NCBI RefSeq assembly: GCF_016903815.1 | Contig: NZ_CP069973.1 | Length of the DNA: 64,000 bases | Origin: Escherichia coli | Lineage (GTDB): Bacteria > Pseudomonadota > Gammaproteobacteria > Enterobacterales > Enterobacteriaceae | Strand: one strand, 5' to 3' | Part shown: one piece after another, positions 3,001 through 6,000 of the stretch | Layout: each line of letters opens with the position of its first letter | How positions within the stretch are numbered: position 1 is the stretch's first letter | Position numbers: made by a program

Positions 3001-6000
3001 CGCGTTTGAGTGGTGAAACGCTCGAACACGCGGTGGAAGTGAGTAAGACCTCCATCACGACCGTTGCGATGCTGGAAATGACTCAGGCTGGTCGCGAAAT
3101 GAGCGATGAAGAGCTCAAAGAAAACCCAGCTGTAGAGCAAGAATGGGACATTCAGTGGGAAATATTCCGACTTTTAGCTGAGTGCGAAGAACGCGATATC
3201 GAGCTGATAAAAGGCCTTAGGGCAGACCTGCGTGAGGCGGGTGAGAGCAATATTGGTATAATTTTTCAGCAATAAGACCAGAAAACGTGATTTAACGCCT
3301 GATTTGTCGTACCTGGAGTCTTCCCTTTCGCCCCCCGTCTGGTCTACATTTGGGGGGCGAAAAAAAGTGGCTATCGGTGCGTGTATGCAGGAGAGTGCTA
3401 TTCTGGCATTTCCGTCGCACTCGATGCTTAGCAAGCGATAAACACATTGTAAGGATAACTTATGAACAAGACTCAACTGATTGATGTAATTGCAGAGAAA
3501 GCAGAACTGTCCAAAACCCAGGCTAAAGCTGCTCTGGAGTCCACTCTGGCTGCAATTACTGAGTCTCTGAAAGAAGGCGATGCTGTACAACTGGTTGGTT
3601 TCGGTACCTTCAAAGTGAACCACCGCGCTGAGCGTACTGGCCGCAACCCGCAGACCGGTAAAGAAATCAAAATTGCCGCAGCTAACGTACCGGCATTTGT
3701 TTCTGGCAAGGCACTGAAAGACGCAGTTAAGTAAGATTGCGTGGCAGTGAACAGTTTTAACGAAGGGGTGGTTTCACCCCTTTTGTCTTTCTGGCGTCGA
3801 TCATTGATGCTGGCAGGTGCGCTGTTTCTCACTGCCTGTAGCCACAACTCTTCACTTCCTCCCTTTACCGCCAGTGGATTTGCTGAAGACCAGGGCGCGG
3901 TACGCATCTGGCGAAAAGACAGCGGCGATAATGTGCATCTGCTTGCCGTGTTTAGCCCGTGGCGCAGTGGCGATACCACCACGCGAGAGTATCGCTGGCA
4001 GGGCGATAACCTTACGCTCATCAATATCAATGTTTACAGCAAACCGCCGGTGAACATTCGCGCGCGTTTTGACGATCGCGGCGATCTGAGCTTTATGCAA
4101 CGTGAATCCGATGGGGAAAAGCAGCAGCTTTCTAACGACCAAATCGATTTATACCGTTATCGTGCTGATCAGATCCGCCAGATTAGCGATGCCTTACGTC
4201 AGGGGAGAGTCGTGCTGCGCCAGGGGCGCTGGCATGCGATGGAACAGACCGTGACCACCTGCGAAGGGCAAACCATTAAACCTGATTTAGATTCGCAGGC
4301 GATAGCGCATATCGAGCGCCGCCAGAGCCGCTCTTCTGTTGATGTCAGCGTGGCATGGCTGGAAGCGCCCGAAGGATCGCAATTACTGTTAGTGGCAAAC
4401 TCTGATTTCTGTCGCTGGCAACCCAACGAGAAAACGTTCTGATTTACCAGTGGCCCATACCCATATGACCGCCACCACTGCAGCCGCCGTAGCCCATGCC
4501 CATTCCGGCTCCGCGCGGAATACCCGCTTCAGCCATCGCAATATCCCGTTTCACCCGTAACTCATCTAACGACTGACGCAAATTCTCCATCTCTTTGGCG
4601 ACCGCGTTAATTTTGCTGCTATCCGGTGGGTTCGCGGCTAACAGGGCATTGTATTCATAACGCTTCGTCACCAGTTGCTGTTGCAGTGCGCTGCTTTGAG
4701 CGTAAAAGTCATTATGGATTTTCTGCCACGCTGTCTCTTGTTCGCTGGTCAAAGGCGCGGCATTTTGCTGCCACATACCGTGTCCGCCGTGAGCAAATGC
4801 AGATGTCGATCCCATCGCCATTGCTGAAAGCGCCATCATCACCAGGGCAATTTTCGTGTTCCGTTTCATGGTTAATCCTCCAGTGGTTGTCTTACTTCGG
4901 GTATTGCATCTTCCGTGCCAACGACGAAACGCTGATATGACGGGTAATCTGGCATGATAAACGAGTAAAAATGACTCGCCTGCTGCGGGTAGCGAGTCAT
5001 TTTTACTCATTGAAACTTAAGTCTTTGTGTTACAGCGCAGGGTAAGCGCTGCTAAAAGATGGCATGATTTCTGCTGTCAAAAAGGGATGAACAGGCAAAG
5101 AAGAAGATACGTTTTATGCAACGTTCAAAAGACACCTTAGCCAAATGGTTAAGCGCGATCCTCCCCGTGGTCATTGTTGGGCTGGTGGGATTGTTTGCGG
5201 TAACGGTGATTCGTGATTATGGGCGGGCAAGTGAGGCTGACCGTCAGGCATTACTGGAAAAAGGTAATGTGCTCATTCGCGCTCTGGAGTCAGGAAGCCG
5301 CGTAGGGATGGGGATGCGAATGCACCATGTGCAGCAACAGGCGCTTCTGGAAGAGATGGCAGGCCAGCCTGGGGTGTTGTGGTTTGCGGTCACCGATGCG
5401 CAGGGCATCATCATTCTTCACAGTAACCCCGAAATGGTCGGGCGTGCACTCTATTCTCCTGATGAAATGCAGCAGTTAAAGCCAGAGGAAAACTCCCGCT
5501 GGAGACTGCTTGAGGATGCAGAAAAAACGCCTGCGCTTGAGGTCTATCGTTTGTTCCAGCCAATGTCATTGCCCTGGCGGCATGGTATGCACAATATGCC
5601 GCGCTGTAACGGCAAAGCTGTGCCACAGGCAGAAGCACAACAGGCTATTTTCATCGCCGTTGACGCCAGCGATCTGGTTGCAACCCAGAGTGGGGAAAAG
5701 CGCAATACCCTGATTATCCTCTTCGCCCTGGCGACGGTCTTGCTGGCAAGCGTGTTGTCATTCTTCTGGTATCGCCGGTATCTGCGCTCGCGCCAGCTTC
5801 TACAAGATGAAATGAAGCGCAAAGAGAAGCTGGTGGCACTGGGGCATCTGGCGGCAGGCGTTGCCCACGAAATCCGTAACCCACTTTCCTCGATTAAAGG
5901 GCTGGCGAAATACTTTGCCGAACGCGCGCCTGCAGGGGGAGAAGCGCATCAACTGGCGCAAGTGATGGCGAAAGAGGCTGACCGTTTAAACCGCGTGGTA

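What the first reader, a model, noticed from the sequence alone, without database searches (positions are those of the whole stretch)
4904..5075. zraP/zraSR divergent control region: two sigma-54 promoters flanking a perfect 17-bp inverted repeat pair
A strong sigma-54 element (TGGCACGGAAGATGCA, reverse strand) faces zraP and a weaker one (TGGCATGATTTCTGCT) faces zraS. Between them lies GAGTAAAAATGACTCGC-N12-GCGAGTCATTTTTACTC, a perfect palindrome pair of the kind bound by enhancer-binding proteins. The architecture is readable directly from sequence and is fully intact in this strain.
Basis: partly seen in the sequence, partly recalled or inferred. Interest (0 to 1): 0.3.

Follow-up and report, generated by a model that had tools for sequence, protein, structure and literature searches.

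The report
Known zraP–zraSR zinc-response control region
This is the already-characterised E. coli switch in which the activator ZraR binds two mirror-image sites between the divergent zraP and zraSR genes and turns on a sigma-54 promoter on each side; it is intact and ordinary in this strain.

Summary
All four elements are at the stated positions: zraP sigma-54 motif 4905-4920 (-), 17-nt arms 4963-4979 and 4992-5008 with a 12-nt spacer, and zraS sigma-54 motif 5060-5075 (+). The repeat is the only perfect one of this size in the window (0 of 100 shuffles). A sigma-54 consensus match alone is chance-level (6 found, 6.75 expected). The window is E. coli, and the four elements are identical to K-12. 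Published K-12 data fit: sigma-54 ChIP-seq peaks on both motifs, the strongest ZraR ChIP-exo peak (= window 4967-4999) inside the repeat pair, and gSELEX giving this spacer as ZraR's single high-affinity target. My footprint over 41 species in nine genera shows four conserved islands (0.90-0.96) in scrambled spacer (0.42-0.56). The core is GTAAAAATGAC/GTCATTTTTAC. The arms vary independently, so the repeat is a protein site, not a hairpin. Site-to-site spacing is 31-33 bp. Small additions: Escherichia lost 11 bp (one helical turn) on the zraP side, and a semi-conserved block on the zraS side is unexplained. Interest is low.

The parts
4444..4869 (-). zraP coding sequence (141 aa periplasmic ZraP; ATG at 4869)
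   Evidence: ORF list. NCBIfam NF008584 ZraP equivalog, 271 bits against a cutoff of 200. RefSeq annotation of the identical strain 7/2.
4877..4881 (-). zraP Shine-Dalgarno (GGAGG on the - strand)
   Evidence: Read from sequence. The CTCC core is conserved in the 42-sequence alignment.
4894..4894 (-). Inferred zraP transcription start (12 nt downstream of the -12 C at 4906)
   Evidence: Inference from the -24/-12 geometry. It gives a 25-nt leader, matching the 'distance 25' listed for zraP in PMC4591121. It was not mapped in this strain.
4905..4920 (-). zraP sigma-54 promoter TGGCACGGAAGATGCA (GG at 4918-4919, GC at 4906-4907)
   Evidence: Identical to K-12 ChIP-seq site OS38, enrichment 39, and to the Salmonella LT2 site. 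Found in 39 of 41 species loci by a strict pattern; genus-weighted conservation 0.93.
4963..4979 (+). Left ZraR site (17-nt arm GAGTAAAAATGACTCGC). Invariant core GTAAAAATGAC at 4965-4975, centre 4970. Pseudo-dyad CGAGT-N7-ACTCG at 4962-4978.
   Evidence: PWM score 30.7 bits. Conservation 0.95. Overlapped by ZraR ChIP-exo peak_9.
4980..4991 (.). 12-nt spacer between the arms (CTGCTGCGGGTA); the sequence is free but the length is constrained
   Evidence: Conservation 0.42. It varies even within E. coli. Core-to-core distance is 31-33 bp in all 41 sequences measured.
4992..5008 (+). Right ZraR site (17-nt arm GCGAGTCATTTTTACTC). Invariant core GTCATTTTTAC at 4996-5006, centre 5001.
   Evidence: PWM score 29.6 bits on the - strand. 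Conservation 0.90. Its first 8 nt lie inside ChIP-exo peak_9.
5060..5075 (+). zraS (zraSR operon) sigma-54 promoter TGGCATGATTTCTGCT (GG at 5061-5062, GC at 5073-5074)
   Evidence: Identical to K-12 ChIP-seq site OS39, enrichment 9. Found in 40 of 41 species loci; conservation 0.96.
5086..5086 (+). Inferred zraSR transcription start
   Evidence: Inference from the -12 C at 5074. It lies 21 nt from the K-12 start codon position (5107), matching the 'distance 21' in PMC4591121.
5116..6504 (+). zraS coding sequence, from the first ATG in this strain. The K-12 start position 5107 is ATA here.
   Evidence: NCBIfam NF007688 ZraS equivalog, 835 bits against a cutoff of 479.
6501..7826 (+). zraR coding sequence: the sigma-54-dependent response regulator (bEBP) that binds the two sites
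   Evidence: NCBIfam NF007689, 991 bits against a cutoff of 760. Pfam Response_reg + Sigma54_activat + AAA_lid_14 + HTH_8. PDB 1OJL ZraR, E = 3e-178. The GAFTGA loop and the Walker A motif GDSGTGKE are visible in the translation.

Best explanation
This is the shared enhancer and divergent promoter pair of the E. coli ZraPSR envelope-stress/zinc system.

Shown for the identical K-12 sequence: sigma-54 RNA polymerase occupies two back-to-back -24/-12 promoters, one reading into zraP and one into zraSR. ZraR occupies the DNA between them.

Inferred from anatomy and from what is established for the NtrC family: periplasmic Zn/Pb or envelope stress activates the kinase ZraS, which phosphorylates ZraR. 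ZraR dimers bind through their Fis-type HTH domains to two 15-17-bp pseudo-dyad sites (G-R-GT-AAAAATG-AC-Y-C). The site centres are 31 bp apart, about three helical turns, so both lie on one face of the helix. This nucleates an AAA+ ring. DNA looping over roughly 75-115 bp brings the ring to either closed complex, and ATP hydrolysis through the GAFTGA loop remodels sigma-54 to open the promoter.

Because the two sites are mirror images, the enhancer looks the same from both promoters. One ZraR assembly can therefore serve zraP (strong output) and zraSR (weak, positive autoregulation).
For: Position and identity of the elements. The repeat is far beyond chance. Flanking genes are ZraP/ZraS/ZraR equivalogs, and ZraR has REC, sigma-54 AAA+ and HTH_8 domains.

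All four elements are identical to K-12. In K-12, sigma-54 ChIP-seq peaks lie on both motifs (PMC4591121). ZraR ChIP-exo peak_9 (S/N 73) maps to window 4967-4999, inside the repeat pair. Deleting zraR under zinc lowers zraP by 12.7 and zraS by 3.2 log2 units. gSELEX gave this spacer as the single high-affinity target, in 81 of 86 clones (PMC8249747). Salmonella shows sigma-54 ChIP-chip signal and bEBP-driven induction at both promoters (PMC3844500).

Phylogenetic footprint over 41 species in 9 genera: four conserved islands (0.90-0.96) in otherwise scrambled spacers (0.42-0.56). Site-to-site spacing is 31-33 bp. The right site is 83-85 bp from the inferred zraS start in all. The left site is 86-88 bp from the inferred zraP start, or 75-76 bp in Escherichia, a difference of one helical turn.

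A PWM built from the sites finds only these two in 64 kb (about 30 bits each; next best 11.3).
Against: The original HydG/ZraR DNase I footprint paper (Leonhartsberger et al. 2001, PMID 11243806) is not in the held library. Nucleotide-level protection therefore rests on ChIP-exo and on my unverified recollection that it describes 'two inverted repeats separated by a 14 bp spacer'. That description fits CGAGT-N7-ACTCG sites at 4962-4978 and 4993-5009.

Nothing was measured in this strain. Transcription starts are inferred, not mapped. The oligomeric state on DNA and the looping step are inferred by analogy with NtrC.

Basal zraS expression in LB does not depend on ZraR (log2FC -0.02), and no sigma-70-like promoter was found in 4800-5200. 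The source of basal zraSR transcription is therefore unexplained.

A second ChIP-exo peak (S/N 34) lies over the zraP RBS and start codon (window 4854-4879), where there is no site-like sequence.
Confidence: 0.95

Rival explanations
1. The 46-bp palindrome acts through nucleic-acid structure. It would be a cruciform extruded from supercoiled DNA, or an RNA hairpin or terminator, rather than a protein-binding site.
For: One strand folds into a perfect 17-bp stem with a 12-nt loop: -17.7 kcal/mol as DNA, z = -7.4 against shuffles.
Against: Across species the arms vary independently. Perfect 17-nt complementarity occurs in only 7 of 42 sequences, and the main variable inner position matches its partner in 13 of 40 distinct sequences, so there is no compensatory pattern. 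No terminator-like site (stem plus T-run) was found in 4800-5200. The element lies upstream of both inferred starts, so it is not in either mRNA. The invariant bases include an asymmetric A5 tract, which fits protein or shape readout rather than pairing. ChIP-exo puts ZraR on it.
Confidence: 0.02
2. The repeat pair is chiefly the target of a regulator other than ZraR, for example another bEBP such as NtrC or a repressor. ZraR would act from elsewhere.
For: zraP transcription rose under nitrogen limitation in the sigma-54 study, and the authors raised the possibility of regulation by multiple bEBPs (PMC4591121). The ZraR iModulon is also active in ethanol and phosphate starvation (PMC7657598).
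Against: [quoted passage not shown] ZraR ChIP-exo and gSELEX both place ZraR here with the top signal. The site co-occurs with zraR in every one of the 41 species loci. The sequence does not resemble the NtrC TGCACC-N5-GGTGCA consensus; that comparison rests on my own knowledge.
Confidence: 0.03
3. This is a variant of the main model. The enhancer is one two-fold-symmetric unit in which each arm is an oriented (asymmetric) site, rather than two independent dyad sites each bound by a symmetric dimer.
For: The invariant core includes the asymmetric centre AAAAATG, and the two copies are always in mirror orientation, in all 42 sequences. Spacing between them is fixed at 31-33 bp.
Against: Each arm also carries an invariant symmetric frame: G(-1)/C13, G1/C11 and T2/A10 are Watson-Crick symmetric in 40 of 40 distinct sequences. 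That is what a Fis-type HTH dimer would read. My recollection of the published description ('two inverted repeats') favours two dyad sites. The two readings are not mutually exclusive, and sequence alone cannot separate them.
Confidence: 0.3

Closest known systems
E. coli K-12 zraP-zraSR (hydHG) intergenic region, as described by Leonhartsberger et al. 2001 and later genome-wide studies (PMC4591121, PMC7657598, PMC8249747)
   Same: It is the same locus. The flanking genes are the same. Both sigma-54 motifs and the whole 46-bp repeat pair are base-for-base identical.
   Different: There are seven substitutions outside the elements in 281 aligned positions, one of which changes the K-12 zraS ATG start to ATA. 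The downstream zraS-zraR-purD genes are 4-6% diverged from K-12.
NtrC-dependent glnAp2 enhancer (two dyad-symmetric NtrC sites upstream of a sigma-54 promoter)
   Same: Both have two dyad sites for a REC-AAA+-HTH(Fis-type) response regulator about three helical turns apart and roughly 80-140 bp upstream of a -24/-12 promoter, with no requirement for a recognisable IHF site. The glnAp2 details are from my own knowledge.
   Different: The recognition sequence differs. Here one enhancer is shared by two divergent promoters and sits almost midway between them. The two sites are mirror images with an invariant asymmetric A-tract centre.
NorR-norVW / norR divergent region (bEBP with three enhancer sites; PMC2831303)
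   Same: A bEBP gene and its sigma-54-dependent target are divergently arranged, with multiple enhancer sites in the spacer (abstract seen).
   Different: NorR uses three sites and a single sigma-54 promoter. Here there are two sites, with no third match above 4.2 bits in the spacer, and both divergent promoters are sigma-54 dependent.

Membership tests
Sigma-54 (-24/-12) promoter | GG and GC doublets exactly 10 bp apart within a TGGCAY-N5-TTGCW-like motif | tested here: met
   Both motifs match with 1 mismatch. The GG/GC positions were read directly from the sequence.
Sigma-54 (-24/-12) promoter | Placed upstream of, and oriented toward, a gene, with a short leader | tested here: met
   The inferred leaders are 25 nt (zraP) and 21-30 nt (zraS). 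These agree with the distances tabulated in PMC4591121.
Sigma-54 (-24/-12) promoter | Occupied by sigma-54 holoenzyme in vivo | not testable with these tools
   Not testable for this strain. For the identical K-12 sequences, ChIP-seq peaks OS38 and OS39 exist. For Salmonella, ChIP-chip enrichment was 29 and 4.8.
Sigma-54 (-24/-12) promoter | Motif under purifying selection relative to its surroundings | tested here: met
   Genus-weighted conservation is 0.93 and 0.96, against 0.42-0.56 in the spacers, across 9 genera.
bEBP enhancer (upstream activating sequence) of the NtrC class | Two or more dyad-symmetric sites on the same helical face, roughly 70-150 bp upstream of the promoter | tested here: met
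   The site centres (4970 and 5001) are 31 bp apart. They lie 76 and 107 bp from the inferred zraP start, and 85 and 116 bp from the inferred zraS start. Spacing is conserved. The symmetric frame G/C, G/C, T/A is invariant.
bEBP enhancer (upstream activating sequence) of the NtrC class | Bound by the cognate bEBP | not testable with these tools
   Published K-12 ChIP-exo peak_9 maps inside the element, and gSELEX gives it as the single target. The original footprint paper is not held.
bEBP enhancer (upstream activating sequence) of the NtrC class | Cognate bEBP with AAA+ sigma-54 interaction domain, GAFTGA loop and C-terminal HTH encoded nearby | tested here: met
   zraR lies at 6501-7826. Pfam finds Sigma54_activat and HTH_8. 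GAFTGA is visible in the translation.
ZraPSR system | ZraP, ZraS and ZraR orthologues in the zraP <-> zraSR divergent arrangement | tested here: met
   All three NCBIfam equivalog models score above cutoff. RefSeq annotation of an identical genome agrees.
Intrinsic terminator / structured hairpin (considered) | GC-rich stem followed by a T-run; base pairing maintained by compensatory change | tested here: not met
   No terminator-like site was found. There is no covariation between the arms: 7 of 42 sequences are perfect, and the inner position matches in 13 of 40.
Dispersed repeat / mobile-element terminal inverted repeat (considered) | Multiple copies per genome | tested here: not met
   The element is unique in the window. 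The 62-bp query has a median of 1 place per E. coli genome, in 5419 genomes.

The most novel reading that the evidence does not exclude
The enhancer is functionally asymmetric in a way not yet described. On the zraP side, the spacer is sequence-free and tolerated an 11-bp (one-turn) deletion in the Escherichia lineage. On the zraS side, the spacer has rigid length (83-85 bp in 41 sequences) and carries a semi-conserved block (TTTGTG at 5024-5029 and CAGGGT(T)A at 5038-5045, about -62 to -41). That block could be the site of an additional, unidentified DNA-bending or regulatory factor that tunes autoregulation of zraSR or supplies its ZraR-independent basal expression.
Probability: 0.15. Interest if true: 0.3.

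Novelty: already known. Interest (0 to 1): 0.1.

Why it matters
It matters little as a discovery. The zraP/zraSR control region, its sigma-54 dependence and its ZraR binding have been in the literature since 2001 and have been re-confirmed genome-wide. The value here is confirmation: a sequence-only reading was accurate, the region is intact in this strain, and K-12 data transfer to it.

The cross-genus footprint adds a cleaner definition of the ZraR site (G-R-GTAAAAATGAC-Y-C, two inverted copies 31-33 bp apart). A 2016 Salmonella review still listed the ZraR enhancer as 'NK' (PMC4987338). The footprint also shows helical-phase conservation through an 11-bp deletion. Both points could help people who design zraP-based zinc and lead biosensors.

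Tried and rejected
- **Third sigma-54 element.** The 9-mer TGGCATGAT recurs at 4950-4958. It has no GC at the -12 position and is not conserved, even within E. coli (strain ESC818 has CTGACGTAAT) or in E. albertii. I rejected it as chance.
- **Third ZraR site, NorR-style.** The PWM gives nothing above 4.2 bits elsewhere in the spacer. Rejected.
- **IHF site between enhancer and promoters.** There is no WATCAANNNNTTR match at up to 1 mismatch in 4870-5116. Not supported.
- **Sigma-70 promoter for basal zraSR expression.** The simple scan found none in 4800-5200. This stays unresolved.
- **Hairpin or cruciform.** It folds well but shows no covariation. Rejected.
- **Other sigma-54-like matches in the window** (3404, 19506, 20390, 34008). 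None appears in the main text of PMC4591121, and the total count is at chance level. I treat them as chance.
- **Original footprint text.** Look-ups of PMID 11243806, PMC99035 and PMC3429621 all failed. Full-text searches for the site sequence or for 'ZraR binding' found no paper describing the site.
- **** was a mis-sent, incomplete script and gave no result.
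Full report
**1. What is in the sequence**

| Element | Sequence | Position | Strand |
|---|---|---|---|
| zraP sigma-54 motif | TGGCACGGAAGATGCA | 4905-4920 | - |
| Left arm | GAGTAAAAATGACTCGC | 4963-4979 | + |
| Spacer (12 nt) | CTGCTGCGGGTA | 4980-4991 | . |
| Right arm | GCGAGTCATTTTTACTC | 4992-5008 | + |
| zraS sigma-54 motif | TGGCATGATTTCTGCT | 5060-5075 | + |

The right arm is the exact reverse complement of the left. The repeat finder reports the same pair, extended to 20-nt arms at 95% complementarity.

The repeat is the only perfect inverted repeat with arms of at least 17 nt and a spacer of at most 40 nt in the 64-kb window. None occurred in 100 dinucleotide-preserving shuffles.

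The sigma-54 consensus at up to one mismatch occurs six times in the window against 6.75 expected. A motif match alone means nothing. The case for these two rests on placement, orientation, conservation and published occupancy.

**2. Context**

The flanking ORFs are ZraP (4444-4869, - strand), ZraS (5107 or 5116 to 6504, +) and ZraR (6501-7826, +). Each matches its NCBIfam equivalog model well above cutoff. ZraR has the receiver, sigma-54-interaction AAA+, lid and Fis-type HTH_8 domains. It is near-identical over residues 141-441 to the crystallised Salmonella ZraR, PDB 1OJL.

The window is E. coli. It is 100% identical over 1.2 kb to strain 7/2 and others, where RefSeq annotates yjaH | zraP | zraS | zraR | purD.

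Against K-12 MG1655, the 281-bp control region differs at seven positions, none inside the four elements. Experimental data from K-12 therefore apply directly.

**3. Published evidence for the identical sequence**

- **Sigma-54 occupancy.** Bonocora et al. 2015 (PMC4591121) list ChIP-seq peaks OS38 (TTGGCACGGAAGATGCA, zraP, enrichment 39) and OS39 (ATGGCATGATTTCTGCT, zraS, enrichment 9). The distances to the genes, 25 and 21 nt, equal those from my inferred starts (about 4894 and about 5086) to the start codons.
- **ZraR occupancy.** Choudhary et al. 2020 (PMC7657598, Data Set S2) give the strongest ZraR ChIP-exo peak at K-12 4201786-4201818, S/N 73. The repeat pair is at K-12 4201782-4201827, so the peak maps to window 4967-4999, entirely inside it.
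- **ZraR dependence.** In the same study, deleting zraR under 1 mM ZnCl2 lowers zraP by 12.7 and zraS by 3.2 log2 units.
- **Specificity.** Shimada et al. 2021 (PMC8249747) found by gSELEX that purified ZraR has a single high-affinity genomic target, this spacer, in 81 of 86 clones.
- **Salmonella.** Samuels et al. 2013 (PMC3844500) show sigma-54 ChIP-chip signal on TGGCACGGAAGATGCA and TGGCATGATCTCTGCT, with 16-fold and 3.7-fold induction by a promiscuous bEBP.
- **Original footprint.** Leonhartsberger et al. 2001 is not in the held library. From memory, unverified, it describes 'two inverted repeats separated by a 14 bp spacer'. That fits CGAGT-N7-ACTCG sites at 4962-4978 and 4993-5009.

**4. 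Independent test: phylogenetic footprint**

I used a ZraP alignment to fetch one locus per species from GTDB representative genomes. This gave 41 loci from Escherichia, Citrobacter, Klebsiella, Kosakonia, Salmonella, Phytobacter, Pluralibacter, Kluyvera and Trabulsiella.

The zraP-zraS spacer is scrambled between genera except for four islands. Genus-weighted conservation:

| Segment | Conservation |
|---|---|
| zraP promoter | 0.93 |
| Left site | 0.95 |
| Right site | 0.90 |
| zraS promoter | 0.96 |
| Intervening spacers | 0.42-0.56 |

Even non-consensus bases of the promoters are almost invariant, including the N5 spacers and the A and C at the first position of the -12 elements.

The site consensus is c-G-R-G-T-A-A-A-A-A-T-G-A-C-Y-C-R-c. 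G(-1), GTAAAAATGAC and C13 are essentially invariant.

**5. Protein site, not hairpin**

The strand folds well as a hairpin (-17.7 kcal/mol, z = -7.4). But the two arms vary independently. Only 7 of 42 sequences keep perfect 17-nt complementarity, and the main variable inner position matches its partner in 13 of 40 distinct sequences.

No terminator-like site is present, and the element lies upstream of both inferred starts. Perfect complementarity in E. coli is therefore incidental. Selection acts on two copies of a protein-recognition sequence.

Each copy has an invariant symmetric frame (G/C, G/C, T/A; half-site centres 11 bp apart) around an invariant asymmetric A5-tract. This fits a Fis-type HTH dimer with shape readout of the centre. 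Whether the orientation of the A-tract matters cannot be decided from sequence.

**6. Geometry**

| Distance | Value |
|---|---|
| Core to core | 31 bp in 26 sequences, 32 in 13, 33 in 2 (about three helical turns) |
| Right-site centre to inferred zraS start | 83-85 bp in all |
| Left-site centre to inferred zraP start, outside Escherichia | 86-88 bp |
| Left-site centre to inferred zraP start, all six Escherichia sequences | 75-76 bp |

The Escherichia difference is 11 bp, one helical turn. By parsimony it is a deletion in the Escherichia lineage, because all other genera have the long form. Helical phase is preserved, as the looping model predicts.

A PWM built from the sites finds only these two in the window (30.7 and 29.6 bits; next best 11.3). 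There is no third site in the spacer and no IHF-like motif at up to 1 mismatch.

**7. Within-species variation**

The 62 bp around the repeat are identical in 4355 of 5419 E. coli genomes. The rest differ at one to three positions. In the genomes I inspected, those differences fall in the 12-nt spacer and the flanks, not in the arms.

The element occurs once per genome (median 1 place), so it is not a dispersed repeat.

**8. Mechanism**

Shown: sigma-54 and ZraR occupancy, ZraR- and zinc-dependence of both transcripts, and conservation of the elements and their spacing.

Inferred by analogy with NtrC-class activators:
- ZraS phosphorylates ZraR.
- Two ZraR dimers bind on one helical face and seed an AAA+ ring.
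- DNA looping brings the ring to either closed complex.
- ATP hydrolysis through the GAFTGA loop opens the promoter.

The mirror arrangement gives both promoters an equivalent view of the enhancer. Output is nevertheless very unequal (zraP much greater than zraS). Sequence scores alone do not predict this: the PSSM ranking is reversed in Salmonella.

**9. Verdict**

Open points:
- A semi-conserved block on the zraS side (5024-5045).
- The source of ZraR-independent basal zraS expression (log2FC -0.02 in LB; no sigma-70-like site).
- A second ChIP-exo peak over the zraP RBS and start codon (window 4854-4879).

None of these changes the classification.

Noticed in passing
window 5107-9124 (zraS, zraR, purD) versus 2685-5106: Identity to K-12 steps down across the control region. 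yjaG is 99.7%, hupA 100%, yjaH 98.4%, zraP 98.8% and the intergenic region 97.9%, but zraS is 94.4%, zraR 95.8% and purD 95.5%. The peak is 11-13 differences per 100 bp at 5400-5599, in the ZraS periplasmic domain. Only 256 of 5420 E. coli genomes are at least 99% identical over 4400-5600, and 4178 are 90-95%. This looks like a divergent allele or recombination tract that begins near the 5' end of zraS.
   Followed up: partly
window 5107-5118: The K-12 zraS start codon ATG is ATA in this strain. RefSeq/PGAP still annotates zraS from 5107 in the identical strain 7/2. The next in-frame ATG, at 5116 (K-12 Met4), is the one conserved across genera as (T)TATGCG / TGATGCG. It may be the real start, which would make the ATA change harmless.
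   Followed up: partly
window 4872-5000, - strand: PGAP annotates a 42-aa 'hypothetical protein' (WP_001522128.1) lying over the zraP sigma-54 promoter, the left ZraR site and part of the right site. Between genera this DNA is scrambled and has indels outside the regulatory islands, so the ORF is almost certainly spurious.
   Followed up: partly
window 4921-4961: All Escherichia species, including E. albertii and E. whittamii, lack 11 bp on the zraP side of the enhancer relative to eight other genera. The left-site-to-start distance is 75-76 bp versus 86-88 bp. That is one helical turn, so helical phase is kept.
   Followed up: yes
window 5024-5045: A semi-conserved block (TTTGTG at 5024-5029 and CAGGGT(T)A at 5038-5045) lies between the right ZraR site and the zraS promoter. 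It has no counterpart on the zraP side. It matches neither IHF nor the ZraR PWM. Its function is unknown.
   Followed up: partly
window 4950-4958 and 5060-5068: The 9-mer TGGCATGAT occurs twice, 110 bp apart. The upstream copy lacks a -12 GC and is not conserved, even within E. coli. It is probably chance.
   Followed up: yes
window 4854-4879: A second published ZraR ChIP-exo peak (peak_8, S/N 34; K-12 4201673-4201698) maps over the zraP RBS and start codon, about 15-40 nt downstream of the inferred start. No ZraR-site-like sequence exists there. It may reflect cross-linking of ZraR to promoter-bound polymerase through the loop.
   Followed up: no
window 4800-5200: zraS expression in unstimulated LB is unchanged in a zraR deletion (log2FC -0.02), yet the simple scan finds no sigma-70-like promoter in the region. 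The promoter that gives basal zraSR expression is not evident.
   Followed up: partly
window 3404-3419 (+), 19506-19521 (+), 20390-20405 (-), 34008-34023 (-): Four other one-mismatch matches to the sigma-54 consensus were found. One lies 43 bp upstream of hupA. None appears in the main text of the E. coli sigma-54 ChIP-seq paper, and the total count is at chance level.
   Followed up: partly
L034 (Pluralibacter MAG), zraP-upstream region: Both ZraR sites are retained, but the zraS -12 element has lost its GC (TGGCATGATCACCGTT) and the zraP motif reads AGGCATGAAAATTGCT. This may mean loss or rewiring of zraSR autoregulation in that lineage, or it may be a MAG sequence error.
   Followed up: no
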